This document shows positions 14,025 to 36,005 of a DNA stretch of 64,000 nucleotides, in pieces (within the stretch, counting starts at the first letter, position 1; the number at the start of each line of letters is the position of its first letter). The DNA comes from Escherichia phage PJNS034, in sequence record PP391266.1, one strand, 5' to 3'. The notes beneath the pieces were generated by a model, which searched no databases, had not been told where the DNA came from, and saw nothing but the letters and a program-made list of their open reading frames with translations. Both the position numbers and the translations under genes were made by a program.

Positions 14025-17000
14025 CGCCATTCCTGCCACAGAACCACCGAGATTCATGTACTCTGCAAGGTTAGTGCCGTAAGCATCAGTTGCTCGTAAG
14101 TTACGAGACTGGAGAGCTTTCTTAACAGCACCATGACCAAGCAAGTGAGCAGAAGCTCGGATGCCTTCCATAGTTACCGGAACACCATCAATAGTCTGAC
14201 CGATGTACTGGTCAAGACCCATGTTTTTGGTACGACGGTCTAACATCTTATTCCAATCTTCAAAAGCCTTTTCCTGTGCTTCTGGAGAGTTCAGGAACTC
14301 CTCTTTCGAGTTAACCCCATACTTACCAGTCCAGTTAGACTTCTCGTTCAGAATAGATTTCTGACCACGACCAACACGACCTTGTGACTTGATAATACCT
14401 AAGTCAACAAGAGCAGGCCATCCAAATTGGTACTTACCGACATAACCGAGAGTGTTCTCGATATCGTACTTACCACCGGATTCACGCTGGCCTAACACGT
14501 CACCATATGCACTCATCATACCTCCTGCATAAGCGCTACCAGCAAACATAGAAGTCAGACCAATTGCACTCAAACCTAATTTCTTAGCCAGTGCATTAGC
14601 TGATTTCTCGTTACGGGCATAACGAACGATAGTTTCTTTATCAGGGTCAACCATCGCATACTCATAGCCTTTATCAAAGGCTACCTCTGGTGAATCAACA
14701 CCTTCTGCCAGTTCGTATGGGTTTACCACTTTGATTTCTGGGTCAGATTCCAGTGCTTTACCATCCAGAGCTTCTGCTGCGGTGTCTACAACTTGCTTAA
14801 CCTGTTCGGTTGGCATGTCTTGCATAGCATCGAGCATATTCTCTACTGGTGCTTCTGGAGTAGGAGTCGGTTCAGGTTGTGGTTCAGTTACCACTGGTTC
14901 TTCACGTACTGGAGCAGCAAAGTCTTCCTCAGCCATAACTACTGGCTTCTGTACTGGTTCATCCATCATCGCCTTAGCAATTGGGGATTCATCAGCACGT
15001 AAGGCTTGTTTGTAGTCTTCCAGACTGTTGTAAACCTTCGGAGCACGTTCTGGGTCATACAGGCCGTAAGCAGATGCGATTGCTCGCTGGTTAGCTGGCC
15101 CCATATAGTTGGTAGTCTCACCTTTCCCGAACACTGCTTTAATCTGGTTACGCATGTCCATAGTGTACAGGCCGTTAGCCCCATTCACCATTTTATCGTA
15201 GCCTTTAGAGCGACGGTATTCGATAGCACCAAGTACATCACCCATCGTCTTCGCCTGAGTCATTACGTCAGTAACAGATTCAGAAGCCTTACCTGCGTTG
15301 ATTGCTTTCTTACCGAAGTTCTGAATTTGTTTCAGCATCGCATTGGATGCAGTAGCAATGTCAGCTTTCAGGGAATCAGCAATTGCAGCCACTTCTTCTG
15401 GAGTGTTACGGGCAATGATTTCATCCAACGATGCACGAGTCTGTGCAGCCGTTTCTTCCAGTGACTTAACTTGCTCTTTCAGTGCCTTGATTGGAGCATC
15501 CAGTTGAGTTGCTTTCTTCTCAAGAATTTCCAGCTTACGTTCGTGTGCTTCTTTGCGTTTCTGCTCAGCAGCTTGTTCACGTTTCTGTTTGTCTTGGAGA
15601 GCCTTCTCTTCCTTCGCCTGTTTATCACGGAGAGCTTTGTCAGCAGCTTCTTGCTTATCGTGCATCTTCTGATATTCAGCAGCCAGTTTACGTTGTTCAC
15701 GTTCCCAAGCCATATCAGCTTTCTCACGAGCAGCTTCGTCTTTCGCTTGAGCTTTCGCTTCATCACGTTTAACACGAGCAGCATCTAACAGTTCTTTCTC
15801 ACGGGCTTTGAAAGCAGCAATTTCCTCAGCATGTGAATCACGCTGTAAACGTTCTTCTGCACGTTGAGTTTCTTTCAGACGTTTCTGTTCAGCACTTGCT
15901 TGTTCTTTCTTCAGACGGTCGCCACGTTGTAACAGCTTGTTAGCAGTTGCACGAAGTTCTTTCTGAGTCAGTGGAGCAGTAGAGCCGAAGGTCTGTGCTT
16001 CAACAACTTGTAATGCTTGTTCTTTCGGAATGCCAAGTGAATCAGCAAAGTCCATCAGGTTTTCATGCTGAGCATAAATCTGATTAACTGCATCATCTTC
16101 AGCTTTACGGGCTACAGTCTCTTCTGGAGTCTCAGCACCTTTAGCCAGAGCATCACGCTCACGTTGCATTGCCTTAATCAGTGAAGCCTTCTCACTATTC
16201 GTAAGCTGACGCATAGAGCCAGTTACAGGGTCAATGTAAGGTGAAGTCAGGTCGTCCATTACGAACTGGTCAAGGCCGTACTTACTTGCCAAACCGGAAA
16301 TATGTTCGTTCTGGGTTGTGATGTTTTTAGCTGCTTCATCACGGATACCTGCTTTAACTTCCTCTGCCTCTGTCTTAGCTTTCTCAGCCTGTGCATTACG
16401 AGCTTCCTCACGAGCACGTTGAGCCAATTCAGTAATCTCACCAGCATCACGGATGTTAGCGATTTGGTCTTCCGGTACACCTGCACGACGAGCACGTTCT
16501 TCCAATGCTTGACGTTCAACTTGTGCTGCACGGTTACGAATGGTTTCAGTTTCACGAATAGCTGCACCCAATACTGCATCCAGACCACGAGGTGCTGGAG
16601 CATTTGGAGCAGGAGCCGCTGGAGTAGGTTCACCAGTTGCCAGTGCTTGCAGGTCAGATGGGTCACGAACTACAGGGGCAGGTTCTGGAACAACAGTAGG
16701 CTCTACAACCGTTGGTTCAGGAGTACGAGCGTATTCCATTGAAGCCAGAGATTGTAATGCTGCTTGTTCTTCTGCACGACTAATGAATCGAGCAGCCTGT
16801 TCAGAGTTAACTTCCGCAATCTGAGCATCAGACCAACCTTTGTTACGAAGCACTTCTGCCTGTACAGGAGAAACACCACCATCAGGTGCTGGCTGAGTCA
16901 TTTCTGGAGTAACAACTGGTTCAGGAGTTACAGTCTGTTCTGGAGCTACAGGTGGTACATCTGGAGTCGGCTCTGGAGCAACATCTGCTGGTGGCGGAGT

Positions 17001-18854
17001 TGGTTCTTCTGGAGCACGAGCAGCCATAACACGGTTCTGAGCATCTGAGTCACGAGCGATTGCACGTAAGCCTTCGAAGTCCTGAGCCATACGAGCACGA
17101 GCTTTACCTTCACGAGAACGAGCGATGATACCCGGTAATTCAGTTGCACCGAAGGTTTTCAGAGCTACTACTGGCTTAGCCACTTTACCGATTGTCGCTG
17201 GTTGTGAAGCATAATCTTCAATACCGTAACGATAAGCAGGGTCTTGGTTTGCCAACATCTTATCTTTGTAGATAAAGGATGCAGCATTCATTGCTGGGTT
17301 AAAACCTTTGTCACCAACAGTGAAACCATAGGTATCAAGTTGACGAGAGAGGTTTTCAGCACGTTGACCAATTGCATCGTAAATCAGTGAACGGTCAGAA
17401 GCGGTATCACGCATTGCTTTCACAATAGCGTTTGCATCGTTCATCATGTTACGCAGATTACGTTGCTGAGATATAGAAGCAGCAGGGTCAATCTCACCCA
17501 TATCTTGACGCAGTTTCAGTTCCTGAATTGAATCATTCAACTGGTTAACTACATCTTCGAAAGCTGATACGTCTTGTGCTTGTGCTTTCTTACCATTACG
17601 ACGGGCAGTAGCCAATTCTTCTGGAGAGAACACGCGAGAACCGAAGTCCAAGTCACCAAGTGCTGATGCACCTGAAATCTTACGACGACGAGCAGCAGAG
17701 CGAATGTCACCTTCAGTCAGACCCATCATAGCTGCGGCAGAGCCGTAATCATCAGACAGTTCAGACAAGCCACGTTTCACACCAATGTCACGCATTGCTT
17801 CTGGAGAAATATCAACACCAGCATCTTTCAAATCACCAAACGCTTTATAGAAAGCAGATGGGCCGATGTTTTCATTTACCTGAGCACGTTCCGTTACCAG
17901 TGCTTCACGCTGTTCTGGAGTAAGGTCTTTACCTACGAGGCTATTCAGTTCTTCATCACGGTGAAGGTTACGCATAGCTTCAACTTGGTCACGTTCAGTC
18001 AGGGCTGGATTACCACCTGCTTCACGGATGTTACGGTCATTACGACCTGCAAAGCTACGAACTGCTGGAGCAATTTCCATTGGGGCACGAATACCACCAG
18101 AAACCAGACCACCAGTTACTGCATAATCCAACAGGTTTTGTGGGTCAACAGCAAGTTCCTGACGACGACCCATTTCGTATGCTGCACCAGAAGCGCCTGC
18201 ACCGATTGCACCAGTTGCTACGGTTTCCGCCATTCGTCCAAGAGCAGTTTTACCGACAGTTGCAAAAGGCTTCCCATAGGGAATAAGCCCTAGAGCGGCT
18301 GCGGCAGTACCAGCAGTACGAGCGATATCCGTGTTACCAGCACCCTCTTGTTCAGCGTAGATAGAACCAGTGGTAGGGCCATATGAAGTAGCACCGAATG
18401 CTAAGTCACCAGCCATTGTTGGTAAGCCAGATGCAGTTTGTTCTGCAACAAACGTACCCAAGTCACCTAAACCACGAATGTCACGCCAGTTTTCCACGGC
18501 ATAACGTTGGTTCTTCTCACCATGCTCACGTAACTTACGGGCAAGTTCACGGTCATGATAAGACTGTTTAGTAACTTCACCTTCTTGCGTCTGACCAGCT
18601 TTCTGAGCCAAATCAGCCTGACGTGCTGCTGCTGCACCAAACAAACCTGATGCCAGTTCAGTACGTCCACGAGTAAACGCATTAGAGATGTTACCGAAGA
18701 ATCCACGGTCTTCTGTTGGAGCTTCTTGTACAGGCAGGGGAGCCTGAGAGATGTTTTGTTCCTGAGCCATTGGGACATTGCCCGTAGGTTGTGGAGAGCC
18801 ACCGCTTCCACTTTCCAATTGACGCAGTAATTCTGGGTCTGTAATTGGAGTCAT
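14022..18854 (-). CDS. large virion protein (tape-measure/internal-core-like) with C-terminal lytic transglycosylase-like domain
   Basis: 1610 aa; Pro-rich linkers, long Lys/Glu coiled-coil, C-terminal RESGG...GYVGKYQFG resembling SLT E-S...G-x-x-G-x-x-Q-F catalytic block (compare T7 gp16 N-domain). Confidence 0.55.
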   Translation of the reverse strand: MTPITDPELLRQLESGSGGSPQPTGNVPMAQEQNISQAPLPVQEAPTEDRGFFGNISNAFTRGRTELASGLFGAAAARQADLAQKAGQTQEGEVTKQSYHDRELARKLREHGEKNQRYAVENWRDIRGLGDLGTFVAEQTASGLPTMAGDLAFGATSYGPTTGSIYAEQEGAGNTDIARTAGTAAAALGLIPYGKPFATVGKTALGRMAETVATGAIGAGASGAAYEMGRRQELAVDPQNLLDYAVTGGLVSGGIRAPMEIAPAVRSFAGRNDRNIREAGGNPALTERDQVEAMRNLHRDEELNSLVGKDLTPEQREALVTERAQVNENIGPSAFYKAFGDLKDAGVDISPEAMRDIGVKRGLSELSDDYGSAAAMMGLTEGDIRSAARRRKISGASALGDLDFGSRVFSPEELATARRNGKKAQAQDVSAFEDVVNQLNDSIQELKLRQDMGEIDPAASISQQRNLRNMMNDANAIVKAMRDTASDRSLIYDAIGQRAENLSRQLDTYGFTVGDKGFNPAMNAASFIYKDKMLANQDPAYRYGIEDYASQPATIGKVAKPVVALKTFGATELPGIIARSREGKARARMAQDFEGLRAIARDSDAQNRVMAARAPEEPTPPPADVAPEPTPDVPPVAPEQTVTPEPVVTPEMTQPAPDGGVSPVQAEVLRNKGWSDAQIAEVNSEQAARFISRAEEQAALQSLASMEYARTPEPTVVEPTVVPEPAPVVRDPSDLQALATGEPTPAAPAPNAPAPRGLDAVLGAAIRETETIRNRAAQVERQALEERARRAGVPEDQIANIRDAGEITELAQRAREEARNAQAEKAKTEAEEVKAGIRDEAAKNITTQNEHISGLASKYGLDQFVMDDLTSPYIDPVTGSMRQLTNSEKASLIKAMQRERDALAKGAETPEETVARKAEDDAVNQIYAQHENLMDFADSLGIPKEQALQVVEAQTFGSTAPLTQKELRATANKLLQRGDRLKKEQASAEQKRLKETQRAEERLQRDSHAEEIAAFKAREKELLDAARVKRDEAKAQAKDEAAREKADMAWEREQRKLAAEYQKMHDKQEAADKALRDKQAKEEKALQDKQKREQAAEQKRKEAHERKLEILEKKATQLDAPIKALKEQVKSLEETAAQTRASLDEIIARNTPEEVAAIADSLKADIATASNAMLKQIQNFGKKAINAGKASESVTDVMTQAKTMGDVLGAIEYRRSKGYDKMVNGANGLYTMDMRNQIKAVFGKGETTNYMGPANQRAIASAYGLYDPERAPKVYNSLEDYKQALRADESPIAKAMMDEPVQKPVVMAEEDFAAPVREEPVVTEPQPEPTPTPEAPVENMLDAMQDMPTEQVKQVVDTAAEALDGKALESDPEIKVVNPYELAEGVDSPEVAFDKGYEYAMVDPDKETIVRYARNEKSANALAKKLGLSAIGLTSMFAGSAYAGGMMSAYGDVLGQRESGGKYDIENTLGYVGKYQFGWPALVDLGIIKSQGRVGRGQKSILNEKSNWTGKYGVNSKEEFLNSPEAQEKAFEDWNKMLDRRTKNMGLDQYIGQTIDGVPVTMEGIRASAHLLGHGAVKKALQSRNLRATDAYGTNLAEYMNLGGSVAGMA

Positions 18855-18920
18855 TTAAAGTCCTCACTCGTTAGGTCGTTTTAGAGAGTTTATTGGGTAA
18901 TTATACACCGTACTCTACAA

Positions 18921-18944
18921 ATAAGAAAGCCCTCCGAAGAGGGC
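18921..18944 (-). terminator. rho-independent terminator (minus strand)
   Basis: On minus strand GCCCTC-TTCG-GAGGGC followed by TTTCTTATTT; a TATAAT lies just downstream. Confidence 0.5.
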
Positions 18945-18950
18945 AGTATA

Positions 18951-20444
18951 TTATTTACGATGCGTTGGGTCGCCACCAACAAGGTCAGAAACTTTGTACC
19001 AGTTTCCATCTTCCAGTTTAACAGCACCTGCACCACGGTTGTAATCACGCACTTTACCAGCGTAACCAGCCATTTCCTGAACGACTTTCTCACCTTGGTT
19101 ATCAGACATGTTACCAGACTGAGCAAGGTTATACAGACTCTGAACAGTCATGTCACGTAACCACTGTTTCTGTCGGATAGATTGCTGAGTATCACCACGA
19201 CGAGGGAAGTAGATGTGACCGTAGTTCTTCCATTCAGCCAAGCCGATAGCAGAACCAGATTCAGGACGCAGAACACCAGCCAGATAACCCATTTCGTTAT
19301 CACGAGCTTTGATGATTTCTGGATACACCGCTTTGAGAGCCGCAGGAATCATTCCCGGTTTCCAGTCAGAGACTTCATCCATGTACATCGCTGGAAGCGT
19401 TGCAAGTGGGTAGTCTTTAACATCCTGAGCAACATCACCATAGCTTTCCATCCAACGGTTCTGAGAAGCCAGAGCACGGTCAGCACCGAACTGAGCTTTC
19501 GCTTGTTGTTCAGTTAAACCTTTCGCACCTTTAGCCTGAGCAGCAGCCAGCTTGTCTTGAGCCATTTGCAGCTTAGTAGCTGATGGAATTTCAGGAAGAA
19601 CACCTTCGTGAACGTAGTTATTAATCTCCGCAGAGTTATAACCTTTGCCATAAAGTTCTTTGGCATCTTGTTCACGTTGACGCATACCTTCTGTACCAGC
19701 CCAAGCAGCACCAGCGGCAGCAAGAGCAAATGGAATACCTGCACCAGTAGCAATGAACCCACCAAAGGTTGCCAGAGTAGCAAGGCTAGATACCAGTTTG
19801 GCACCGAAACTTTCACGCTGTACATCGGCATCTTTCCCGGTCAGTACACCCTCTTTTCCCGGAGCTTGTTGAGCCTTTTGTGCTTCTGCCATCTTAGCGT
19901 TAGCTAAATCTTTAGCAAATGCAGTTGAGTCTGCAACAGTCTGAGCAGCAGGGTCGTCTACAGCGGCACGTTCAGCATTAGCCTGAGCGGTACGAGTAGG
20001 GTCAGTCGGGGTCAGAGGCTTAGCACCAATTGGTGATGGAGTACCAACCTCAGCTTCTGCTGCTTCGAGAACACCTTTAGGTGCAATTCGAGTTGCAACA
20101 CCACGCTGTAAATCAGTCAACCAGTCACCTGAGCCACTCTCACCATACTGCTTATTCAGATAGGCTTGTTCATCCGCTGGCATACCACCTTGTGCCTTGA
20201 CAGCCATTTGCCCTTCTGGAGTAGCCAGTTGAGCTTGAGCAGCAGGAGATAACTTCCCACCACCAGTAGCAATCATCAATTTACGTTGACGTGCTTCTTC
20301 ATCCTCACGAGCTTTCTTCTGCTTCTGCATTTCGAGGACAGTAGGGTCAGTAGAACGCTTCTCGTACTTCAATCCCGTTTCAGGGTCAGTTGGACTCCAA
20401 TCAGGCATCCAACCTTTAATTGTATCGAGTACACCGCCAGCCAT
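18951..20444 (-). CDS. virion structural protein (hypothetical)
   Basis: 497 aa ORF in structural arm, ATGA overlap with next gene. Confidence 0.45.
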   Translation of the reverse strand: MAGGVLDTIKGWMPDWSPTDPETGLKYEKRSTDPTVLEMQKQKKAREDEEARQRKLMIATGGGKLSPAAQAQLATPEGQMAVKAQGGMPADEQAYLNKQYGESGSGDWLTDLQRGVATRIAPKGVLEAAEAEVGTPSPIGAKPLTPTDPTRTAQANAERAAVDDPAAQTVADSTAFAKDLANAKMAEAQKAQQAPGKEGVLTGKDADVQRESFGAKLVSSLATLATFGGFIATGAGIPFALAAAGAAWAGTEGMRQREQDAKELYGKGYNSAEINNYVHEGVLPEIPSATKLQMAQDKLAAAQAKGAKGLTEQQAKAQFGADRALASQNRWMESYGDVAQDVKDYPLATLPAMYMDEVSDWKPGMIPAALKAVYPEIIKARDNEMGYLAGVLRPESGSAIGLAEWKNYGHIYFPRRGDTQQSIRQKQWLRDMTVQSLYNLAQSGNMSDNQGEKVVQEMAGYAGKVRDYNRGAGAVKLEDGNWYKVSDLVGGDPTHRK

Positions 20445-20770
20445 TACTGTAACTCCCGTGCAATGAACAACTGAACTTGACGTTTGGCTTCGTCAGGAGA
20501 AATGTTCGGGTTAGTCTCACGAAGACCTTCTGCGAATTGCTGAACCTTCTGCATAGCGTTCTGTAAATCAGGGTCGCTATTCATATAGTTCTCAAACTGA
20601 GAAGCCTTCTCTTGGGTATCAACGTGTCGGGATAAGGCACTTGGAGGTTCCATCATCCCTTCCATACCAGATACATTGGGACGGGAAGTTTGATAACCTG
20701 CGTTGCCTGAAGTGATTTGTTGTTGACGAACACTTGCATTACCACGAATGCGGTCATAAATATCTGGCAT
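20444..20770 (-). CDS. hypothetical protein
   Basis: 108 aa; RBS AAGGAGG. Confidence 0.45.
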   Translation of the reverse strand: MPDIYDRIRGNASVRQQQITSGNAGYQTSRPNVSGMEGMMEPPSALSRHVDTQEKASQFENYMNSDPDLQNAMQKVQQFAEGLRETNPNISPDEAKRQVQLFIARELQ

Positions 20771-20830
20771 GTTGCCTCCTTCTTTTTAGTTATTATATCC
20801 CAACGGATTTACAAACTCAAAATTATATGG

Positions 20831-20867
20831 TATTTTAAGCTTCTAGCGTCCGAAGGGAAATAATAGG
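20831..20867. promoter_or_regulatory. conserved intergenic element, copy A
   Basis: TATTTTAAGCTTCTAGCGTCCGAAGGGAAATAATAGG; near-identical copy at 34719-34754, core copies at 47255 and 43104. Confidence 0.45.
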
Positions 20868-20911
20868 TAATAATATAGAAGGGAGAGATGTTACTCCCTC
20901 CCAACATACTA

Positions 20912-21928
20912 TTACTTAAATGAACCTGTAGCACCCATAGAGGTATTCGAGGTAGAGCCAGAGGTTTTGCCAGAGCCAGTGGTGGTTTTGTCCATCAGTG
21001 GGTTCATCTTATTCAGAATATCCATGATAGTGTTAATATCCGTCACACCTGCATCTTTCAACTGCTGACCGACTTGGTTCATGTAGCCAGTGTCCAGTTC
21101 CTTCTGACCTTGTTGCTGCTGGAGATTACCAGACAGTAACTGGTTGAGGATAGACTGCTGACCTGCACCACTGATACGGTCAAGCTGGCCTAACGCCGAA
21201 GTACCACCTGAGATGGAGCCTAACAGACCTTGCAGACGGTTTTGAACGTTCTGCTGGTTCATGTTCTGAGAGATACCAAGACCTTGCTGATACATCTGAG
21301 AAGTCAAGTCAGCTTTCTGCTGGTTCGCTTGGTTCAAGATGTTTTGAGCAACATTGGAACTCTGCTCCATAGCTCCACGAGCAGCCACACCTTGAGCGAT
21401 AGCAGAACGACTAGAGCCAACGTTGCCTTCGCCAACACCCTGACGGTAGATTGAGGGCATTGTGTTTTCTTGGAGGTTACGCTGGATAAGGCGGTTTGCT
21501 TGCTCAACTGAGCTTTGTGCAGACTGGTCGATTGCATCAGTTTGGTTCTTGAGAAAGTCACTGTTGACCATATCAAGAGCGCCCTGAGTCAGCTTACCAG
21601 TGGTCTGGTCAAAAGCACCTTCACCCATTTGGTTCAGGCTATCAACTGTACCCCACAGCTTATCAATACCGCCCTGAGTTTGGTCAAGAACAGATTGTAA
21701 GTGACCTGACTGATTGAGACGTTGAAGCGCAGCAAGCTGTTCTTCATTCATGCTCTCAATCTGTTTCTCAGTATAGCCTTGTTCTTTTAGCTTGTTATAG
21801 ACACCATTGGCATCACCTTTAATGGCATCAATGACGTCTTTTGGCAAGCCGGTTTGAGAAGTAGAAGTCGAAGACGACTTGCTGCTGCTCTTACCTTTAC
21901 TCTTACCGAAACTTAATCCGAAACCCAT
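20912..21928 (-). CDS. Gln/Asn/Ser-rich virion protein (hypothetical)
   Basis: 338 aa, low-complexity Q/N-rich. Confidence 0.4.
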   Translation of the reverse strand: MGFGLSFGKSKGKSSSKSSSTSTSQTGLPKDVIDAIKGDANGVYNKLKEQGYTEKQIESMNEEQLAALQRLNQSGHLQSVLDQTQGGIDKLWGTVDSLNQMGEGAFDQTTGKLTQGALDMVNSDFLKNQTDAIDQSAQSSVEQANRLIQRNLQENTMPSIYRQGVGEGNVGSSRSAIAQGVAARGAMEQSSNVAQNILNQANQQKADLTSQMYQQGLGISQNMNQQNVQNRLQGLLGSISGGTSALGQLDRISGAGQQSILNQLLSGNLQQQQGQKELDTGYMNQVGQQLKDAGVTDINTIMDILNKMNPLMDKTTTGSGKTSGSTSNTSMGATGSFK

Positions 21929-24198
21929 TATGGAGTCTCCTCGTTGTTGATAGGAGGAGCCTCCGTAGAGACTCCATTCATCTTGTCATTATACAACGCA
22001 TCCAGCTTCATCTCAAGCACTTGGACTCGTTCGTCAATCAGCCCCTTCACATTACTCTGTAACAGCTCTAAGGTCGTCCTGAGTGTCTCATTGTCGGCTT
22101 TGAGTTGTCGGTTCTGAGCAGAAAGTTCCTTGATAGCCTCGATGTGCAAAGCATGTAGCTGGTTGTAATCTACAGTGTAATAGTCCTCTTCATCCTCTTC
22201 GTCATTTGGATTGTTCCCAACGAAGACGGCATTGTCATATACTCCAAGCAATTCCTGAGCAATAACGCCTGCACTTGGTACATCGGAACCGTTATACATG
22301 AACGTATAACCATTCAGCTTCTCTACAGTTTCCAAGGCATTATCAACCTTTGTAACACTGTGTTTGAGACGTTCATCCGAGGCATTAACAACCTGACCAG
22401 TAATCTGACCATTCACAGATAACTTAGATTGGTTATTTGCCAGACCTGTATTACGCTCCAGATACATGCCGTAGGGAAGACCTTCCCAACCCCATTCCAG
22501 AACAGTCTCACGAGCACCAGAGCCCCACAAACGAAGGTTAGCCTCACGACCAGCACCATTAATACGTTTCCAGTATTGAGTAGAGTTGTAGTAAGTTGCA
22601 CCATTCAAATGCGTAGGACAACCAAAAGAGGTAGCACCGTCGGTCATATTGATAGTGATAGGACGATGCCCTGTCCAGCCTCCCCAGCCGCCATCTGTAT
22701 GAGATAACAGGAAGTACATGTTTGCACCATCCTGACGGAATATGAAACCTTTGTTACCGTAGACAGCTCGGAATGAGTCAGCATGGGTCGAAGCTACACC
22801 GTAATACACAAACTTGTTAGGGTCGAAGTAACCTTTAACTGCACTGTTTGACCAGAGGTTTACTGCACCATCTGCTCGGAAGCCAAAACCTGAGTCATTA
22901 TCGCCAATAGCTAACTGTAAGGTGTTGTTAGCTTTGCTCTCAAGTTGGATTCGATTCCCAACATTCACAATGTCCTTGATGTTTGCATTACCTGAAGATG
23001 TAATGCTACGGTTGCAGATGTAACTATCTGTAGAAGTCTTCAGGTCAACTAACAAGTTGGCATTGGTTGGAGTTGTTACAGGGCCGACAGGAAATACAGC
23101 AGCATTAGGGGCAGTTCCCAACGATACTTGAGCTTTATGCAGAATTGGTGGAGTCTGAGACTCAATGTGGTATACATTATCTCCACGGACATAAACTACA
23201 AAACCGTAAAAATCCCTGCTACCAGCGAAAATGCCACCAAGTGTACGTTCATTATAATCGTAGACTGACAAAACACCGGAAACTACTTGAGGTGTATCAG
23301 ACCAACCAGATGCTTGTACAAAACCAATAAATGAGTTCTGGTTGAAGGGGTCAGTACCGCCACGAGCTGTAGATTTGATACTCAGTCGAGTAGAGTTCCA
23401 AGTTTGGTCAAGGTTAAACTGGATTGGATAGAACCAGTCTTTATTCAATCCACGGGTATCAATTACATACCGTTTACCAATGTCCTGAGAAGCAGCATTC
23501 AATTCATCAAGAGAAGGTTTACGGCCTGTATGGTACACATCTTGGTCACTGTAAGTAAGGCGCCCATCATCTTTTAGTTGAAGGTACTTATTGGTTGCAC
23601 CATTCTTCAGATAAATGTCACCAGAACCAACGCCAAGGTCAAGAACTTTATTACCAGTTAGTTGTAGGTTCCCACCCTTCGGGATGTACTTACTGTCAGA
23701 TTCACCTTTGGTATAAACACTAATCTTAGCCGCATATCCATTATCTGACTGAGCTTTAGTGTAGTATCGACCATCAGCTTCTGCTTTTGAATAGTATTGT
23801 TTGAGAGCTACCTGTACTCGTGATTCTAGGTCTTGAATCCCTTCCGCTTGCTTGTTGAAATATGCAATAGCTGCTGAGATACGTTTAGCAAAGTCAGCAA
23901 TTGTTTCATTCAGTGTGTTGATAATTGCATACTCCGTATCAGTCACACTGTCTTTGTTGAAAGCGGTACGAAGTTCAATCTCTGTGTTGGAGTTGACAGT
24001 CTTAATCTCTGCCATCATGACATTATCGTCAGCAATAGAAATCAACACCAAGTCACCCGGAGTGATTCCCATCTTATCATCAGCCCACAAGGTATTTTTA
24101 CCAGTGATTAAGGCTGAACCTGCCTTGTACGTTACCGTACCAGTTTTATACCACATACTACCTCCGAGGGAAGAAAGGCTCCAGAAGGAGCCAGTCAA
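21928..24198 (-). CDS. tail fiber/spike protein with C-terminal intramolecular chaperone (peptidase S74-like) domain
   Basis: 756 aa; C-terminal SDERLKHSVTKVD...LNGYTFMY...AQELLGVY block typical of self-cleaving chaperone domains of endosialidase-type fibers. Confidence 0.55.
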   Translation of the reverse strand: MTGSFWSLSSLGGSMWYKTGTVTYKAGSALITGKNTLWADDKMGITPGDLVLISIADDNVMMAEIKTVNSNTEIELRTAFNKDSVTDTEYAIINTLNETIADFAKRISAAIAYFNKQAEGIQDLESRVQVALKQYYSKAEADGRYYTKAQSDNGYAAKISVYTKGESDSKYIPKGGNLQLTGNKVLDLGVGSGDIYLKNGATNKYLQLKDDGRLTYSDQDVYHTGRKPSLDELNAASQDIGKRYVIDTRGLNKDWFYPIQFNLDQTWNSTRLSIKSTARGGTDPFNQNSFIGFVQASGWSDTPQVVSGVLSVYDYNERTLGGIFAGSRDFYGFVVYVRGDNVYHIESQTPPILHKAQVSLGTAPNAAVFPVGPVTTPTNANLLVDLKTSTDSYICNRSITSSGNANIKDIVNVGNRIQLESKANNTLQLAIGDNDSGFGFRADGAVNLWSNSAVKGYFDPNKFVYYGVASTHADSFRAVYGNKGFIFRQDGANMYFLLSHTDGGWGGWTGHRPITINMTDGATSFGCPTHLNGATYYNSTQYWKRINGAGREANLRLWGSGARETVLEWGWEGLPYGMYLERNTGLANNQSKLSVNGQITGQVVNASDERLKHSVTKVDNALETVEKLNGYTFMYNGSDVPSAGVIAQELLGVYDNAVFVGNNPNDEEDEEDYYTVDYNQLHALHIEAIKELSAQNRQLKADNETLRTTLELLQSNVKGLIDERVQVLEMKLDALYNDKMNGVSTEAPPINNEETP

Positions 24199-24450
24199 TT
24201 ACTGCAACTTGCTGGCTAAGTCGCCATACAGATTATTCAATTCCATCATCTGATTAGTCAGGTCGAAAATTTGATTAGAGGTTTCAATTTTAAATGAAAC
24301 CAACTGAGAGTTAAGTTCATCCACTTCTTTCTGAAGCTTACGGTTATTCTCAGCATTACTCTCAATCAAATCACGAAGTTCTTGAAGACGGCTATCGTGA
24401 GAAGACAGGGAATTTTCGATACCTGACAAGCGAAGTTCTAGTTCAGTCAT
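24199..24450 (-). CDS. small coiled-coil protein
   Basis: 83 aa ORF. Confidence 0.35.
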   Translation of the reverse strand: MTELELRLSGIENSLSSHDSRLQELRDLIESNAENNRKLQKEVDELNSQLVSFKIETSNQIFDLTNQMMELNNLYGDLASKLQ

Positions 24451-24479
24451 TATTCACCTCAATGTTGTTGATAAATTAA

Positions 24480-27362
24480 TTATAACGAAATTTGTACACG
24501 CAGTACACCGGCATTGTCGTAGAGTCGGATTGCATTATTAGAAATCTTCAGACCACGGTTTGCGGCAGTGTTATCTTGAATCAAGATATTACCATTTGAC
24601 TCCACCTTCATTCGGTTTGAAATATTCAAAGTACCACCTGTGATGTTAGTACCATTGATATTACCTCCATTAATGTTAGAGCCAGTGATGGTTGCACCAT
24701 TCAAGTTCTTAACATTAATCTGCTGTGCTGCAAGGTTCACAATAGCAGCAGTATCGATGTAGGCAGTCTTGATTCGGACTGTACCATTGATAATCTCAAA
24801 TGGATTGATGGAGTTCTTTGAGTCTCGGTTACGAACAATGAATCGGTCAGCATCAACCACAAATGCAGAGTTAGCACCACCGTTAATCAAGCCAAAACCA
24901 GCAGGTACACCAGCCACATTTGAACGAACAGCCCAAAGAGCTTCGTGCTTGTTGTTAGCACTAGATGCAACACTTGAGACTTGCTGTAAGGTAGTTTTAG
25001 TACCATTCAGGTCAGTCTGTAAAGTGTTTGCCTGAGAGGTAAGTGCATTCGTCTTATCAGTCAGAGTTTTTACCTCGTTCGTGATTCGAGAAGTGTTTGC
25101 ATTCACCTTAGCATCAACGGAAGATACACGAGATGCCATTGCGGTATCTTTGGCAGTCACCACCTTTTCCAGTGCGGCAATCTGAGCCTTAACAGAAGTG
25201 TTCACTGTTGACTCAAGGCTGTTCAGTCGAGAGGTTACGTTACCATCGAGAGTAGAAACAGATTTCTTCACATCGTTGATAGAACCTTCGGCTGTACCTA
25301 AACGAGTGCTCAGTCCAGATACCTGAGTAGCGGTTGCGTTGGCTTTATCTGCTGTTGCCTTAACATCAGTTGTCACTTGTGCAATAGTTTTGCTCTGTGA
25401 ATCTAAATTAAGAGCATTATTAACTCCCGCTTTAGAAGCAGAATCAACACTAGCAACAAGATTGTCAACCCGCTGTGCAAGAGAAGAAGTGGAATCAGCA
25501 ACTGTCTTCTTGAGTGCTTGTACCGATGCGTCATTGTCATTTACCGTTGATTGCATCGCTTCTACTTGCTTTGAAATAGCCAAGATAGCAGTAGAACGAG
25601 CTTCGCTTTCCGCCTGAATCTTAGATTCGTTACCGGCAACACGAGAATCCATGCTGTCTACTTTCTTAACTGCTGCATCCATTTTGGTGGTTACAGTGCT
25701 TTCCAGTTCGGTAACTTTAGCGATAGTCTCGCCAATACGAGATTCAGCCCCAGATACTTTCTCAGTCACAGCTTTCAGTGCATCAGCCTGAGTCTGAGTT
25801 TGTTCTTTGATTGCAGCCTCATTGTGGTTAGCTTTTGCCTCGACACCACTTAACTGAGTAGCCAGAGAACCCATAGCATCTGAGCGAGCTTTGCTTTCAT
25901 CAGTAATTCGAGTATTAGCTAACTGCACTTCTTTCTCAAAGCGTTCAGCCTGAGAGTTGATACGGTCTTCAATCTCTTGGAATTGAGTAGCGGTAAAGCC
26001 ATCTAAACCAGTCAATTGGTCACGATACATAGAAGTGGTAACGTTGATTTTACCATCCATTTCAGGACGACCCACATGCTCCATACCTTGACCAGCGGGG
26101 ATAGTGTCATATCCCATCAGGGCATAAGAACCACCTTCTGCAACTGAGTCGATGCCAATTTCCGTACCACCAAGAGCAATCAGAGATTCTTTCAGTTTTG
26201 GAAGGAACTCACCAGCATACTGATAAGTATAAACCATCTGTAAGTAATCACGATTGAAGGATGCTACACGGTCTTTGAAATCTTGAACCCATTTAGCATC
26301 ATCACCATCATTGAACGACCAGTTGTAAGCACCAGTACGTTCCTGAGTCTTACGATTGATAACGACTAAGTTAATACCGGGTTTTGCAGTTGACAGGACA
26401 GTTTCTTCACGCAGTTCACGTACACCAAAGAACTCAGGGGCAGCCGCTTCACGTGAGGATGAAGCCACTTCTTCGTGAGGAGCACCGGCAGTAGACATAT
26501 TATATGTCTTCATGAACTCAGTGCTGTTCATTGCCATCTCTCCAGCTTTCTTCGCCTCGACAAAGGCTTGGTTCGCTGTATCGTTGACGTTGGTGTACTT
26601 GGTTTCTAGATTATCAATCTTCTGAGCAGTTGATTCCTTGTCAGTAGTGATAGTCTGCTTCATCTGCTCAATGTCAGCTTTGTTGGTGTTGGACTGTGAC
26701 TTAACACCTTCAATCTGAGTAGCTGTAGCTTTGTCCTGTTCAGTTACAACCTGTTGGAATGCAGCCAATTGAGCCAGAACCAAATCATCACCAGCTTTCA
26801 CCTTCTCAGCGATATCAGATGATAGCGCATCCTTAATCCCCTGAAGGGCTTCCCCATCTGCACCAATGTTATCCCATTTCTCTTGAGCCTCTGTTGCTGA
26901 CTTATTCAGATTCGAAATCTGTTCAGACAGTTTGGTTTGAGACTCTTTAAGAGCTTCACGAGCTTCATTGGTTTCTTTCAGGAGTTGGTTAACGACTTCA
27001 TCCTGAGCGTGGGAGATATCTTCACGGAGAAACTCACTCAACTTCTTGGTAAGGGCATCTTCATCAGTAGAGATTGCATCAAGTTGCTTTTTAACTTCAT
27101 CAACTTGCTTTCCAATGTCACCAAGTTCTGTCCCATTCAGTTTGTTGATAGCCTCCCAAAGTTTCTTGATTTCTTCCTTGAGAGCTTCAATAGCAGCGGG
27201 GTCGCCTCCCGAAGAAGAGAGGCGCATCAGTTCATCAATAGCGATTTCGAGTTTGTCGAACTCAGCCATTACGTCTGCCACCGACTGAGTTAAGTCGTTA
27301 GCGGTAATAAAACCACGACGATATGGTAACGCTACTTCTAAACGCTTATTAGTGGCAGCCAT
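24480..27362 (-). CDS. long coiled-coil fiber/structural protein
   Basis: 960 aa, extensive Ser/Thr/Ala-rich helical repeats, Asn/Gly-rich C-terminal beta region. Confidence 0.45.
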   Translation of the reverse strand: MAATNKRLEVALPYRRGFITANDLTQSVADVMAEFDKLEIAIDELMRLSSSGGDPAAIEALKEEIKKLWEAINKLNGTELGDIGKQVDEVKKQLDAISTDEDALTKKLSEFLREDISHAQDEVVNQLLKETNEAREALKESQTKLSEQISNLNKSATEAQEKWDNIGADGEALQGIKDALSSDIAEKVKAGDDLVLAQLAAFQQVVTEQDKATATQIEGVKSQSNTNKADIEQMKQTITTDKESTAQKIDNLETKYTNVNDTANQAFVEAKKAGEMAMNSTEFMKTYNMSTAGAPHEEVASSSREAAAPEFFGVRELREETVLSTAKPGINLVVINRKTQERTGAYNWSFNDGDDAKWVQDFKDRVASFNRDYLQMVYTYQYAGEFLPKLKESLIALGGTEIGIDSVAEGGSYALMGYDTIPAGQGMEHVGRPEMDGKINVTTSMYRDQLTGLDGFTATQFQEIEDRINSQAERFEKEVQLANTRITDESKARSDAMGSLATQLSGVEAKANHNEAAIKEQTQTQADALKAVTEKVSGAESRIGETIAKVTELESTVTTKMDAAVKKVDSMDSRVAGNESKIQAESEARSTAILAISKQVEAMQSTVNDNDASVQALKKTVADSTSSLAQRVDNLVASVDSASKAGVNNALNLDSQSKTIAQVTTDVKATADKANATATQVSGLSTRLGTAEGSINDVKKSVSTLDGNVTSRLNSLESTVNTSVKAQIAALEKVVTAKDTAMASRVSSVDAKVNANTSRITNEVKTLTDKTNALTSQANTLQTDLNGTKTTLQQVSSVASSANNKHEALWAVRSNVAGVPAGFGLINGGANSAFVVDADRFIVRNRDSKNSINPFEIINGTVRIKTAYIDTAAIVNLAAQQINVKNLNGATITGSNINGGNINGTNITGGTLNISNRMKVESNGNILIQDNTAANRGLKISNNAIRLYDNAGVLRVQISL

Positions 27363-27365
27363 AAT

Positions 27366-29090
27366 TTATCGAACTCCTCCTGCGACAATATCTAAGTCGT
27401 AGCCTGTAAATGCCCAACGACCGATATTATCATCTGTGAATCGCATAGCGATGTATTTATTGTTGGTTCGGAATGAAGTTTGGTACTGCTGACCAATGGT
27501 AAACATTTGCTGTTCTTTCCAATTTGGTGCCGAGTTAGAGTCATTAACACCACCAACTTCGATACGAACTGAACCCTCACCAGTGAATTGAGGGTAGCAT
27601 TTACGAACCTTCACATTCCCCCAAGTCTGTAGGCCAACCTCGTCAAAGTCCAACTGACGACGTTCCATTCGTGCCAGAAGAGGCTTCTGAACACTTTGAT
27701 AAACATCCTGAGTAATTGGGATAATAGCACCTGAGTCGGGCTTGTTATATGCCTCTGTGAACTCGTCGTTATAGAATCGCTCACCAGTATCAATCTGGAA
27801 TACTGTACCGAACTTGCCCATAGCAACAAAGTGTTGAGATGCAAAGTTCTGAGAAGTGATTTCCCACTGTTCAAGAGGGTCAACATTTGCCCAAGAGTGT
27901 TTCGGGTCGTTAACATCCTGACCATCATAGTCTTCCCATTTACGGGTATCAACTGCCAGAGGTGCTACGAGGTTTACGTCTGTGTTATCTGGAAGGTCAT
28001 AGAAAGTCCAAGTATCGAACTCCCAATTCCATACAGCAGCACGGTTCGTAGTCCAGTCACCTTCGTTACGTAAGTCAGTACCGGGACGTGCATAACACAC
28101 CCAAATCTCTTTCTTTGGATAAATGGTGAATACACGAGTTGCCAGTGGGTTAACAGAGGTAATCTCACGCATCAATCGTTCACGAATACGACCAGCAACA
28201 ATAGACTTACGAGAAGAACCGTCATGAACGTATACGTCGTTGTTAGAGATTACGAAGTGCTTACCATCGAACTCTGCAACACATTGACGTCCAAGAATAC
28301 CGGAACCAGAGAACAGCTTGGTGAAACGGAAGATAGAGTTACCACCGATGAACTGCATCTGGAAGGTATCTTCTGTAGTGTAGATGATGAATGAGTCACG
28401 CATAGGCAGACCATCAATAATCTCACCAGTTGCATCAGTCAGGTCGTTAAAACCAGCACTGTTAGTTGTAGAGCGGTCATCCCAATCTTGTGGAAGGTCG
28501 TTTACATCGGCAATGTCACTCCAGCGAATACGCTGTGGATACTCTTTACCATCCTCGAAGGTGTTCAGAGCAATCAGGAAGTTTTTGTATGAACGCATCA
28601 GATAGGTACGCCATTCCAACTTCACCTTCTTACCATCTGCACCAGTAACCATACCCCACTCAGGTAATGGCTGGAACTTCTCTTCTGTTGGACGAATGCC
28701 TTGAGGTTCATCACCAAGGTTGTTCATTACCAAGCAGTTTGACAAGGTTGTATAGTACCAAGTCTGAGAAGGACGAGCATTGTATCCATCGAGAGTAGAA
28801 GAAGCAATAATTACATCTGTTGGAGATTTAATTTTGTAGAGATTCTTGGTTGTACCGATAATCCATGAAGAGTCTGTACGGGTATCACGAAGCCCTGCAA
28901 TTGCCAGAGTTACTTCACCATCCTTAACCTTACGCTCCATTGCACGGGAGTTACCACCAAACTTCTCAACCTTAGAACCTTCAAAGCGAACGTTCTGAGC
29001 ATCATTCCACGCATTAGGTGGAAGGTCATATGGAGGGATATCTGAGATAACTCCCACCTGACCAACATTTCGAACTTTATACGTTGGCAT
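27366..29090 (-). CDS. virion structural protein (tail/baseplate-like)
   Basis: 574 aa; RBS AAAGGA. Confidence 0.4.
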   Translation of the reverse strand: MPTYKVRNVGQVGVISDIPPYDLPPNAWNDAQNVRFEGSKVEKFGGNSRAMERKVKDGEVTLAIAGLRDTRTDSSWIIGTTKNLYKIKSPTDVIIASSTLDGYNARPSQTWYYTTLSNCLVMNNLGDEPQGIRPTEEKFQPLPEWGMVTGADGKKVKLEWRTYLMRSYKNFLIALNTFEDGKEYPQRIRWSDIADVNDLPQDWDDRSTTNSAGFNDLTDATGEIIDGLPMRDSFIIYTTEDTFQMQFIGGNSIFRFTKLFSGSGILGRQCVAEFDGKHFVISNNDVYVHDGSSRKSIVAGRIRERLMREITSVNPLATRVFTIYPKKEIWVCYARPGTDLRNEGDWTTNRAAVWNWEFDTWTFYDLPDNTDVNLVAPLAVDTRKWEDYDGQDVNDPKHSWANVDPLEQWEITSQNFASQHFVAMGKFGTVFQIDTGERFYNDEFTEAYNKPDSGAIIPITQDVYQSVQKPLLARMERRQLDFDEVGLQTWGNVKVRKCYPQFTGEGSVRIEVGGVNDSNSAPNWKEQQMFTIGQQYQTSFRTNNKYIAMRFTDDNIGRWAFTGYDLDIVAGGVR

Positions 29091-29150
29091 CTAATAAATC
29101 CTTTGGGTTTGTGTCAAGTTTTATTTTAGCACATTTGCTGTCGTTGTATA

Positions 29151-29174
29151 CAAGAAAACCCTCCGAAGAGGGTT
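29151..29174 (-). terminator. rho-independent terminator (minus strand)
   Basis: On minus strand AACCCTC-TTCG-GAGGGTT followed by TTTCTTG. Confidence 0.5.
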
Positions 29175-29180
29175 AACTTA

Positions 29181-30065: not shown

Positions 30066-30310
30066 TTGCGTTTGTCCTCTTTCAGTTCTCGAAGTGCATC
30101 TTTCACTGCATCAAGAGCTTGGTTATTCAGGGCGACTTGCTTTTCCAGAGAAGCTACAACAGTAGACAAACTTGATTGCTGCTCTTGCTTCGCTTTCAGG
30201 ATTTGCACGTCAGTATAGAGAGTTAAGGCTAATCCAAGAGTAATAACAGATAGGGATGTTGCCACCCCTACCAACCACTCTTTCATAACCCCTTGTGGTT
30301 TGTTGTCCAT
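30062..30310 (-). CDS. small membrane protein
   Basis: 82 aa; TM segment WLVGVATSLSVITLGLALTLY, coiled-coil tail. Confidence 0.4.
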   Translation of the reverse strand: MDNKPQGVMKEWLVGVATSLSVITLGLALTLYTDVQILKAKQEQQSSLSTVVASLEKQVALNNQALDAVKDALRELKEDKRK

Positions 30311-30314
30311 TCGA

Positions 30315-33997: not shown

Positions 33998-34006
33998 CTC
34001 TAGTCC

Positions 34007-35993: not shown

Positions 35994-36005
35994 TCACGAT
36001 TCCTC

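What the first reader, a model, noticed from the sequence alone, without database searches (positions are those of the whole stretch)
21928..24198. Tail fiber with a C-terminal self-cleaving intramolecular chaperone domain
The last about 150 residues start with SDERLKHSV... and continue with a coiled-coil, the pattern of peptidase-S74-type chaperone domains that trimerise a fiber and then cleave themselves off at the conserved Ser. This marks 21928-24198 as a receptor-binding fiber or spike whose mature form is shorter than the ORF.
Basis: partly seen in the sequence, partly recalled or inferred. Interest (0 to 1): 0.4.

Follow-up and report, generated by a model that had tools for sequence, protein, structure and literature searches.

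The report
Phage tail fiber with self-cleaving chaperone
This gene of Escherichia phage PJNS034 encodes an ordinary phage tail fiber whose last 150 residues are a well-known self-cleaving folding domain, a useful annotation for a "hypothetical protein" but not a new kind of biology.

Summary
The ORF is on the minus strand. Its real start is almost certainly ATG 24156, giving 742 aa, not the mechanical TTG at 24198 (756 aa). SDERLKHSV begins at Ser593, exactly 150 residues from the C-terminus.

- Pfam Peptidase_S74 matches residues 593-644 at E 6e-11, 42.9 bits against a cut-off of 22.
- Ser593, Asp594 and Lys598 are invariant in 31 non-redundant homologous domains.
- A profile of these domains places Ser593 on residue 1 of the released GA-1 gp12 chaperone (3gud) and on the mutated catalytic Ser587 of MyRF (7dc3). 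Lys598 falls on MyRF Lys592.
- An AlphaFold model of residues 573-742 (pLDDT 86.7) has significant structural matches only to MyRF, GA-1 and endosialidase chaperone domains.

The mature part (1-592, about 65 kDa) carries tail-fiber profiles, including a T4 gp34 / Mu S-type domain, and no enzymatic domain. It is therefore a fiber, not a depolymerase spike.

The window is Escherichia phage PJNS034, a podovirus with an SU10-type head. NCBI lists this protein as hypothetical. Cleavage itself is inferred, not shown. Verdict: a new member of a known kind, of low interest.

The parts
21928..24156 (-). Tail fiber CDS, 742 aa (81.8 kDa precursor), stop codon at 21928-21930. The mechanical ORF extends to a TTG at 24198.
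   Evidence: Identical to NCBI 'hypothetical protein [Escherichia phage PJNS034]', 742 aa. GGAGG lies 4 nt upstream of ATG 24156.
23827..24156 (-). N-terminal domain (residues 1-110), the presumed virion-attachment part: beta-rich, followed by a long helix (about 86-126).
   Evidence: PHROG families 12714, 1591 and 1798 match residues 1-110. This is the best-conserved part among full-length homologs. It shows weak similarity to the N-terminal half of Drexlerviridae lateral tail fibers. AF2 pLDDT is about 60-80 for residues 1-100 only.
23677..23796 (-). Shaft repeats of the type YxKAESDxxY (residues about 121-160). They are absent from the L002 relative, so the shaft is modular.
   Evidence: Sequence; alignments.
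22942..23076 (-). Most variable segment (residues about 361-405), a candidate specificity-determining region (inference).
   Evidence: Sliding identity is 18-37% to TacPo2 and 27-57% to L002, with indels, whereas the flanks are 60-100%.
22651..22797 (-). T4 gp34 / Mu S-type fiber trimerisation domain (residues 454-502).
   Evidence: Pfam PF21446 E 1.9e-10, 41.7 bits against cut-off 27. PDB sequence hits: Mu tail fiber S 5yvq (2.6e-9) and T4 gp34 4uxe/5nxf.
22381..22650 (-). Conserved distal segment just before the cleavage site (residues 503-592). It becomes the C-terminal tip of the mature fiber.
   Evidence: 93-100% identical to L002 and 53-83% to TacPo2. It carries invariant R542, W544, G545, E554, W555 and W557.
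22378..22380 (-). Codon of Ser593, the predicted nucleophile and first residue of the released fragment.
   Evidence: Aligns to residue 1 of the GA-1 gp12 chaperone chain 3gud and to position 587 of MyRF.
22363..22365 (-). Codon of Lys598, the predicted general base of the Ser-Lys dyad.
   Evidence: Invariant. Aligns to MyRF K592, which is equivalent to endoNF K916 (PMC8326128).
21931..22380 (-). C-terminal intramolecular chaperone / Peptidase_S74 domain, residues 593-742 (150 aa, 16.9 kDa).
   Evidence: Pfam; profile against the PDB; AF2 pLDDT 86.7; Foldseek top hits 7dc3, 3gud and 3gw6 only.
21973..22167 (-). Long C-terminal helix (residues 664-728), the presumed trimeric coiled-coil. It is about 40 residues longer than in most homologous domains.
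   Evidence: AF2 helix 92-156 of the 170-residue model, pLDDT 94-99. Most homologs end near residue 687.
21931..21978 (-). Conserved C-terminal tail NGVSTEAPPINNEETP. At the DNA level it carries GAGGAG, the Shine-Dalgarno sequence of the next gene, whose ATG overlaps the fiber stop (TAATG).
   Evidence: Nearly identical nucleotides in the window, TacPo2 and L002. The RNA folds better than shuffles, z -3.3.
20912..21928 (-). Downstream, translationally coupled gene (338 aa): an ejection ('DNA injection') protein, not a fiber adhesin or chaperone.
   Evidence: PHROG 4287 E 2.4e-24. BLASTP to SU10 gp22 gives E 2e-7.
24177..24192 (-). Terminator-like hairpin GGCTCC-TTCT-GGAGCC followed by TTTCTT, between the upstream 83-aa gene and the fiber start.
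   Evidence: Its folding energy is not better than shuffles, so its significance is uncertain.

Best explanation
Gene 21928-24156 (minus strand) of Escherichia phage PJNS034 encodes a trimeric tail fiber precursor of 742 aa. Its last 150 residues form a C-terminal intramolecular chaperone domain (Peptidase_S74 type). By analogy with the endosialidase, T5 L-shaped fiber, GA-1 gp12 and MyRF domains, three copies of this domain associate through their long C-terminal helices. That association brings the three chains into register and nucleates folding of the beta-structured fiber upstream. Once the trimer is correctly folded, Ser593, activated by Lys598, attacks the peptide bond just before it. 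This releases a ~17 kDa fragment (593-742) and leaves a ~65 kDa (592 aa) mature fiber subunit in the virion. The mature fiber has five parts: an N-terminal attachment domain, a modular repeat shaft, a variable central region, a T4 gp34 / Mu S-type domain, and a conserved distal tip that becomes the new C-terminus. It is a non-enzymatic receptor-binding fiber of a podovirus with an SU10-type head. Shown here: the domain identity, the catalytic residues, the fold and the genomic context. Inferred: trimerisation, the cleavage event, its exact site, and receptor binding.
For: Pfam PF13884 matches residues 593-644 at E 6.1e-11, 42.9 bits against cut-off 22. Thirty-seven PHROG families match, nearly all tail fiber families, and many match through the C-terminus. 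S593, D594, L597 and K598 are invariant in 31 non-redundant domains, and SDERLK is nearly universal in 124 hits. The profile against the PDB finds S16 gp37 6f45 (4e-15), MyRF ICA 7dc3 (3e-12), a tail fiber 8jov (3e-6) and GA-1 gp12 chaperone 3gud (1.5e-3). The Ser column falls on residue 1 of the released GA-1 fragment and on MyRF position 587; the Lys column falls on K592. PMC8326128 documents S587/K592 = endoNF S911/K916 as the indispensable dyad, and the C-terminal coiled-coil as the trimerisation driver. The AF2 model of residues 573-742 has pLDDT 86.7 with alpha-beta-beta-alpha-beta-beta-long helix topology. Foldseek against the PDB returns only chaperone domains as significant or probable hits: 7dc3 at 1e-5, 3gud at 1.4e-3, 3gw6 at probability 0.84-0.97. 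Fiber nature of the mature part: PF21446, and Mu S and T4 gp34 PDB hits. Context: the gene lies in a tail module between a Phage_Tail_Tip protein and ejection proteins. SU10's distal long-tail-fiber protein gp13 carries the same motif at residue 618.
Against: No virion protein data or expression data were available, so cleavage is not demonstrated. The only paper on this phage (LWT 2025, 117685) is not in the library. The full-length AF2 monomer model is unreliable (pLDDT 42), so neither the upstream triple-beta-helix nor the trimer is shown. In endoNF an upstream Arg (R897) also contributes to catalysis, and no equivalent was identified here. The simple heptad test of the long helix was not significant. 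The segment next to the cleavage site is conserved between an E. coli phage and a Pantoea phage. This fits poorly with that tip being the sole host-specificity determinant.
Confidence: 0.85

Rival explanations
1. The S74-type domain is present but is not released. It stays on the mature fiber as a C-terminal knob, either uncleaved or cleaved but still bound, and forms part of the functional tip.
For: Cleavage was not observed here. The domain has an unusually long helix and a conserved C-terminal tail absent from most homologs, which could hint at an extra role. MyRF shows that the domain can remain functional in place after cleavage.
Against: The Ser-Lys dyad and all other invariant positions are intact, and characterised phage homologs with an intact dyad self-cleave and release the domain. 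The conserved tail is largely explained at the DNA level by the ribosome-binding site and structure for the overlapping next gene.
Confidence: 0.08
2. After release of the chaperone domain, the conserved tip (residues 503-592) is capped by a separate adhesin protein that makes the receptor contact, as in T2/S16-type long tail fibers (gp37 plus gp38).
For: The best sequence match of the C-terminal domain in the PDB is S16 gp37 from the gp37-gp38 complex 6f45. Residues 443-687 are 30-33% identical to distal fiber subunits of T4-like Enterobacter and Cronobacter phages. The pre-cleavage tip is conserved across phages with different hosts.
Against: No gp38-like gene is adjacent. The downstream gene is an SU10 gp22-like ejection protein. 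The upstream 83-aa gene is a small helical protein with no adhesin match. The only glycine-rich ORF in the window (807-1253) is low-complexity Gly/Ala, has no family match and lies 20 kb away.
Confidence: 0.05
3. The protein is an enzymatic tailspike (a polysaccharide depolymerase) rather than a fiber, as in endosialidases and K5 lyases that carry the same chaperone domain.
For: The founding members of the family are tailspikes. About 230 residues (225-450) have no Pfam assignment.
Against: No lyase, hydrolase or beta-helix family appears in Pfam at E up to 1, or in NCBIfam. The PHROG matches are tail fiber families, with only one weak tail spike family. The matched structural domains are fiber domains of T4 gp34 and Mu S. 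The mature part is short (592 aa), with about 160 residues of attachment domain and shaft.
Confidence: 0.04

Closest known systems
C-terminal intramolecular chaperone domain of coliphage K1F endosialidase (endoNF; PDB 3GW6)
   Same: Both have a C-terminal domain beginning with the nucleophilic Ser, with Lys five residues later (S911/K916 against S593/K598). Both end in a long helix, and the domain sizes are similar (about 150 aa). Foldseek finds 3gw6 among the top hits.
   Different: Sequence identity is only 13-15% and the match is structurally loose (TM about 0.3-0.4). endoNF is an enzymatic tailspike with a long beta 'tentacle' contacting the stalk, whereas this protein has a non-enzymatic fiber upstream.
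Bacillus phage GA-1 neck appendage protein gp12 chaperone domain (PDB 3GUD)
   Same: The released fragment starts with SDERHK, aligned residue for residue with SDERLK of this protein. This directly supports Ser593 as the first residue of the released fragment. There is also a Foldseek hit at 1.4e-3.
   Different: It comes from a Gram-positive podovirus appendage. The sequence match covers only the N-terminal ~50 residues of the domain.
Salmonella phage S16 long tail fiber distal subunit gp37 (PDB 6F45) and T2-type gp37 proteins
   Same: This is the closest solved sequence relative of the domain (profile E 4e-15), with motif SDRRIK. The fiber segment upstream of the domain is also related to T4-like distal fiber subunits.
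   Different: S16 gp37 works with a separate adhesin, gp38. No such gene was found here. The host virion is a podovirus, not a T4-like myovirus.
Escherichia phage SU10 (Kuravirus) long tail fiber distal protein gp13
   Same: It has the same kind of C-terminal domain (SDENLKHNI at residue 618, aligned with Ser593). It sits in a podovirus whose portal, capsid and adaptor are of the same Pfam families as this phage's.
   Different: There is no detectable similarity outside the chaperone domain, nor to the SU10 proximal fiber gp12. The rest of the tail module (nozzle, short fiber) is unrelated. SU10 uses a two-protein fiber, whereas here a single protein has its own N-terminal attachment domain.
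Pantoea phage TacPo2 gp59 (PP496723, WXX18514.1) and metagenomic relatives P0002, P0127/L002
   Same: These are full-length orthologs (56-60% identity for TacPo2 gp59 and P0002; 80-83% for the L002 copy) with the same gene order and the same chaperone domain and C-terminal tail.
   Different: All are annotated as hypothetical. The shafts differ by repeat loss and insertions, and the segment around residues 361-405 is hypervariable.
MyRF ICA domain (mouse myelin regulatory factor; PDB 7DC3)
   Same: This is the best structural match (Foldseek E 1e-5, TM 0.53-0.64), and the dyad positions align.
   Different: It is a eukaryotic membrane-bound transcription factor in which cleavage releases the N-terminal part from the ER. 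Only the domain is shared, not the biological system.

Membership tests
Peptidase_S74 / C-terminal intramolecular chaperone domain (PF13884) | Profile match above the curated gathering score | tested here: met
   E 6.1e-11, 42.9 bits against 22, residues 593-644 covering profile positions 1-57 of 58. The database's precomputed Pfam hits agree.
Peptidase_S74 / C-terminal intramolecular chaperone domain (PF13884) | Catalytic Ser at the domain's first position and catalytic Lys five residues downstream (endoNF S911/K916, MyRF S587/K592) | tested here: met
   Ser593 and Lys598 are invariant in 31 non-redundant homologs. They align to GA-1 fragment residue 1 and to MyRF 587/592. The definition is taken from PMC8326128.
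Peptidase_S74 / C-terminal intramolecular chaperone domain (PF13884) | Domain lies at the extreme C-terminus of a phage tail fiber, spike or appendage protein | tested here: met
   Residues 593-742 of 742. Tail fiber PHROGs and PF21446 lie upstream. The gene sits in the tail gene module.
Peptidase_S74 / C-terminal intramolecular chaperone domain (PF13884) | Characteristic fold: short helices and beta-hairpins followed by a long C-terminal helix | tested here: met
   AF2 pLDDT 86.7, elements H35-41, E45-48, E55-58, H61-67, E72-75, E87-90, H92-156. Foldseek top hits are 7dc3, 3gud and 3gw6 only.
Peptidase_S74 / C-terminal intramolecular chaperone domain (PF13884) | C-terminal helices form a trimeric coiled-coil that drives trimerisation | tested here: inconclusive
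   Only a monomer could be modelled. Leu 678/685/692/699/706 have 7-residue spacing, but the single-register a/d occupancy was not better than shuffles (1526 of 5000).
Peptidase_S74 / C-terminal intramolecular chaperone domain (PF13884) | Autoproteolytic release of the domain after folding | not testable with these tools
   This needs SDS-PAGE or mass spectrometry of virions, or of recombinant wild type against S593A/K598A.
Peptidase_S74 / C-terminal intramolecular chaperone domain (PF13884) | Beta-structured trimeric stalk (triple beta-helix or similar) immediately upstream | tested here: inconclusive
   The full-length AF2 monomer predicts beta-strands at 538-589 but with pLDDT below 50.
T4 gp34 / Mu S-type fiber trimerisation domain (PF21446) | Profile match above the gathering score and similarity to solved fiber domains | tested here: met
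   E 1.9e-10, 41.7 bits against 27, residues 454-502. PDB hits: 5yvq at 2.6e-9 and 4uxe/5nxf at about 1e-6.
T2/S16-type gp37-gp38 fiber tip system | A separate gp38-type adhesin gene next to the fiber gene | tested here: not met
   The downstream gene is an SU10 gp22-like ejection protein. No PDB match was found for it. The only Gly-rich ORF is low-complexity and distant.
Kuravirus (SU10) long tail fiber | Homology to the gp12 N-terminal adaptor-binding region, or to gp13 beyond the chaperone domain | tested here: not met
   BLASTP to gp12 gives a best E of 0.25. Against gp13 only the chaperone domain aligns, E 1e-4.
Depolymerase tailspikes (endosialidase, K5 lyase type) | Recognisable catalytic (glycosidase or lyase, beta-helix or beta-propeller) domain | tested here: not met
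   No such family in Pfam at E up to 1 on three segments, or in NCBIfam.

The most novel reading that the evidence does not exclude
The chaperone domain of this small phage group is extended by about 40 helical residues. It ends in a 16-residue tail (NGVSxExPP(I/V)NxEETP) that stays conserved when the helix length changes. The tail's coding DNA is almost invariant across phages whose fibers are only 56-80% identical, and it carries the ribosome-binding site and a hairpin for the overlapping ejection-protein gene. The most novel reading is that this 3' end serves a dual purpose. It would be a fixed recombination joint for swapping fiber cassettes, and a translational-coupling element tying ejection-protein synthesis to fiber synthesis. 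The released chaperone fragment might additionally have a post-cleavage role through its conserved tail.
Probability: 0.15. Interest if true: 0.35.

Novelty: new member of a known kind. Interest (0 to 1): 0.15.

Why it matters
The result gives a functional annotation to a protein that NCBI lists as hypothetical, in a phage proposed for food biocontrol, and to its relatives such as TacPo2 gp59. It identifies one of the phage's likely receptor-binding proteins. It predicts the mature size (592 aa, 64.9 kDa) and the released fragment (150 aa, 16.9 kDa), which matters when interpreting virion proteomics. It also matters for recombinant expression: the C-terminal domain must be kept for folding, and S593A or K598A would trap the precursor. 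It flags residues around 361-405 as the place to look for host-range differences. It does not reveal a new mechanism.

Tried and rejected
1. The plus-strand reading of the given coordinates is full of stops, so it was rejected.
2. The TTG start at 24198 (756 aa) was rejected in favour of ATG 24156, which has a GGAGG and matches the NCBI product.
3. The full-length AlphaFold monomer with a 5-sequence alignment gave pLDDT 42. It was judged unusable and not sent to fold search.
4. A third homolog search with the mature region 215-592 returned a single protein, so no deep alignment could be built for the receptor-binding part.
5. The apparent two-gene fiber in relative L002 turned out to be one in-frame TGA, not a split architecture.
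6. Mapping the tail module onto SU10 showed that only the head, portal and adaptor (Pfam) and the ejection protein gp22 are related. The nozzle, the short fiber and gp12 are not.
7. The gp38-like adhesin hypothesis was checked against the downstream gene and a Gly-rich ORF, and rejected.
8. A scan of viral contigs for the conserved 3' junction gave 0 hits, and a protein-pattern scan gave one distant locus.
9. The upstream hairpin's folding energy is not better than shuffles.
10. The paper on PJNS034 (LWT 2025) and any paper on TacPo2 are not in the library.
Full report
**Observation**

The coordinates 21928-24198 enclose an uninterrupted ORF, but on the minus strand. The plus-strand translation is riddled with stops.

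The 756-codon length comes from the first possible start, a TTG at 24198. An ATG at 24156 is preceded by GGAGG four bases upstream. The resulting 742-aa product is 100% identical over its full length to an NCBI entry, 'hypothetical protein [Escherichia phage PJNS034]', on a 65.7-kb contig. The gene is therefore 21928-24156 (minus strand), 742 aa and 81.8 kDa.

The string SDERLKHSV is present.

**What the C-terminal 150 residues are**

- **Pfam match.** Peptidase_S74 (PF13884, 'chaperone of endosialidase') matches residues 593-644 across essentially the whole profile, at E 6.1e-11 and 42.9 bits against a gathering score of 22.
- **Homolog search.** A search with the last 210 residues returned 336 proteins at E <= 1e-6, all carrying PF13884. 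In 124 of them the domain aligns, and SDERLK or a near variant sits at the same place.
- **Conservation.** In a non-redundant alignment of 31 domains, Ser593, Asp594, Leu597 and Lys598 are invariant.
- **Match to solved structures by sequence.** A profile of that alignment, searched against PDB sequences, finds four relevant entries:
  - S16 gp37, 6f45, E 4e-15, motif SDRRIK;
  - the MyRF ICA domain, 7dc3, E 3e-12;
  - a tail fiber, 8jov, E 3e-6, motif SDERLK;
  - the GA-1 gp12 chaperone, 3gud, E 1.5e-3.
- **Position of the catalytic residues.** The 3gud chain is the released fragment, and it begins SDERHK at residue 1, aligned exactly with Ser593. In 7dc3 the Ser column falls on the S587A position and the Lys column on K592.
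- **Literature definition.** The MyRF structure paper states that S587/K592 are equivalent to endoNF S911/K916. They form the indispensable Ser-Lys dyad. The C-terminal triple coiled-coil drives trimerisation. In phages, cleavage follows correct folding and releases the domain (PMC8326128).
- **Fold.** An AlphaFold2 model of residues 573-742, built on the 31-sequence alignment, is confident (mean pLDDT 86.7). It shows short helices, two beta-hairpins and a 65-residue terminal helix. Foldseek against the PDB returns MyRF ICA (E 1e-5, TM up to 0.64), GA-1 (1.4e-3) and endoNF 3gw6 (probability 0.84-0.97). Nothing else comes close.

Every sequence- and fold-level criterion of the family that I could test is met. 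The trimeric coiled-coil could not be shown. Only monomers could be modelled, and a crude single-register heptad test was not significant, although Leu 678, 685, 692, 699 and 706 are spaced by seven.

**The mature part**

PHROG matches are almost all tail fiber families.

- Residues 1-110 match N-terminal fiber families and are the most conserved N-terminal block among full-length homologs.
- Residues about 121-160 are YxKAESD-type shaft repeats.
- Residues 454-502 match the T4 gp34 trimerisation domain, PF21446 (E 1.9e-10, above cut-off). They also match the solved Mu tail fiber S protein and T4 gp34.
- Residues 443-687 are 30-33% identical to distal fiber subunits of T4-like Enterobacter and Cronobacter phages.

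No enzymatic domain appears in Pfam at relaxed thresholds or in NCBIfam. 'Fiber' is therefore favoured over 'spike'.

The full-length monomer model was unusable (pLDDT 42).

Sliding identity to relatives shows that the most variable stretch is around residues 361-405. The 80-90 residues just before the cleavage site are 93-100% identical to the closest relative and 53-83% identical to the Pantoea phage ortholog. The new C-terminal tip is thus conserved, and specificity may lie more proximally. That last point is an inference.

**Context**

The window is phage PJNS034. The only paper on it (LWT 2025, 223:117685) is cited in PMC13030339 but is not held in the library.

The nearest sequenced genome is Pantoea phage TacPo2, in which every gene is annotated hypothetical. 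Its gp59 is the ortholog, at 56.5% identity.

The portal, major capsid and adaptor proteins belong to the SU10 Pfam families, so the head and neck are those of a Kuravirus-like podovirus. The tail module, however, is not SU10-like.

Read along the minus strand, the gene order is:

1. terminase
2. portal
3. scaffold
4. capsid
5. adaptor
6. 272-aa protein
7. 955-aa tail protein
8. Gp10_C protein
9. 574-aa structural protein
10. 960-aa coiled-coil protein with a Phage_Tail_Tip domain
11. 83-aa helical protein
12. this fiber
13. ejection proteins: 338 aa (SU10 gp22-like, E 2e-7), 108 aa, 497 aa and 1610 aa

SU10's own distal long-fiber protein gp13 has SDENLKHNI at residue 618, aligned with Ser593. 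The SU10 structure paper never mentions a chaperone or cleavage.

**Rival readings**

- **A gp38-type adhesin capping the tip, as in S16/T2.** I considered this because S16 gp37 is the closest solved relative. The flanking genes are not adhesins, and the only glycine-rich ORF (807-1253) is a distant low-complexity sequence without family matches.
- **Retention of the domain on the virion.** This cannot be excluded without protein data, but it is unlikely given the intact dyad.
- **A depolymerase spike.** This is unlikely given the domain content.

**Side observations**

The last ~55 nt of the fiber gene are almost identical in PJNS034, TacPo2 and L002, although the fiber proteins are only 56-80% identical. 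This DNA encodes the conserved tail NGVSxEAPPINxEETP. It contains GAGGAG seven bases before the next gene's ATG, which overlaps the fiber stop (TAATG). It folds into hairpins more stable than shuffles (z -3.3). This suggests translational coupling and a conserved recombination boundary.

In relative L002 the fiber is interrupted by a single in-frame TGA at the Gly of YVRGDNVY.

**Verdict**

This is a new, previously unannotated member of a very well known class: tail fibers and spikes with Peptidase_S74 intramolecular chaperone domains. It is useful for annotation, proteomics and protein engineering of this phage group, but it would not surprise a specialist.

Noticed in passing
L002:9950-10010 (Logan SRR26913649 contig 13220): In the closest relative, the orthologous fiber gene is called as two genes (377 aa and 404 aa). 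The break is a single in-frame TGA replacing the Gly codon of 'YVRGDNVY'. It could be a nonsense mutation, a sequencing error or readthrough; it is not a real split fiber.
   Followed up: partly
window 21915-21997 (minus strand): The 3' end of the fiber gene is nearly identical at the nucleotide level in PJNS034, TacPo2 and L002, despite divergent fibers. It holds GAGGAG for the overlapping ATG (TAATG) of the next gene and hairpins with z -3.3. An 11/12 sigma-70-like match (TTGAGA-17-TATAAT, 22016-21988) lies just upstream, inside the fiber gene.
   Followed up: partly
L003:12198-14369 (SU10 gp13, residue 618): The SU10 long tail fiber distal protein carries an S74-type motif, SDENLKHNI, aligned to Ser593 of this fiber. 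This implies C-terminal self-cleavage of SU10 gp13, yet the SU10 structure paper contains no mention of 'chaperone' or 'cleav'.
   Followed up: partly
window 6138-6966 (+): A tight cluster of 10 tRNA genes (Pro, Tyr, Lys, Ser, Ile, Ser, Asn, Met, Trp, Gln) in a ~65 kb phage genome.
   Followed up: no
window 807-1253 (+): A 148-aa ORF that is 28.6% glycine and very alanine-rich (long runs of AAGG/GGGG), with a hydrophobic N-terminus and a charged C-terminus. It has no PHROG match. It may be a real low-complexity protein or a non-coding repeat.
   Followed up: partly
window 30315-33182 (-): The 955-aa tail protein (PHROG 2871, 1331 bits) is 49-50% identical over its full length to proteins of ~350 kb jumbo coliphages (121Q, PBECO4 group) and many other phages. 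It is 69% identical to its TacPo2 counterpart. It is a widely travelled tail module with no Pfam domain.
   Followed up: no
window 24199-27362 (-): The upstream 960-aa coiled-coil protein has a lambda-J-type Phage_Tail_Tip domain and is followed by an 83-aa helical ORF. Its length varies between relatives: 960 aa here, 706 aa plus 92 aa in L002, and about 919 aa with no small ORF in TacPo2. This is probably a central needle or fiber of variable length.
   Followed up: no
window 33179-42240 against 14022-33182 (-): The genome is mosaic. The portal, capsid and adaptor are SU10/Kuravirus-type by Pfam. The nozzle, fiber and needle genes show no similarity to SU10, while the ejection protein p338 again matches SU10 gp22.
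   Followed up: partly
window 24177-24192 (-): A terminator-like hairpin (GGCTCC TTCT GGAGCC, then TTTCTT) lies immediately upstream of the fiber start codon, inside the mechanical TTG-started ORF. Its folding energy is not better than shuffles.
   Followed up: yes
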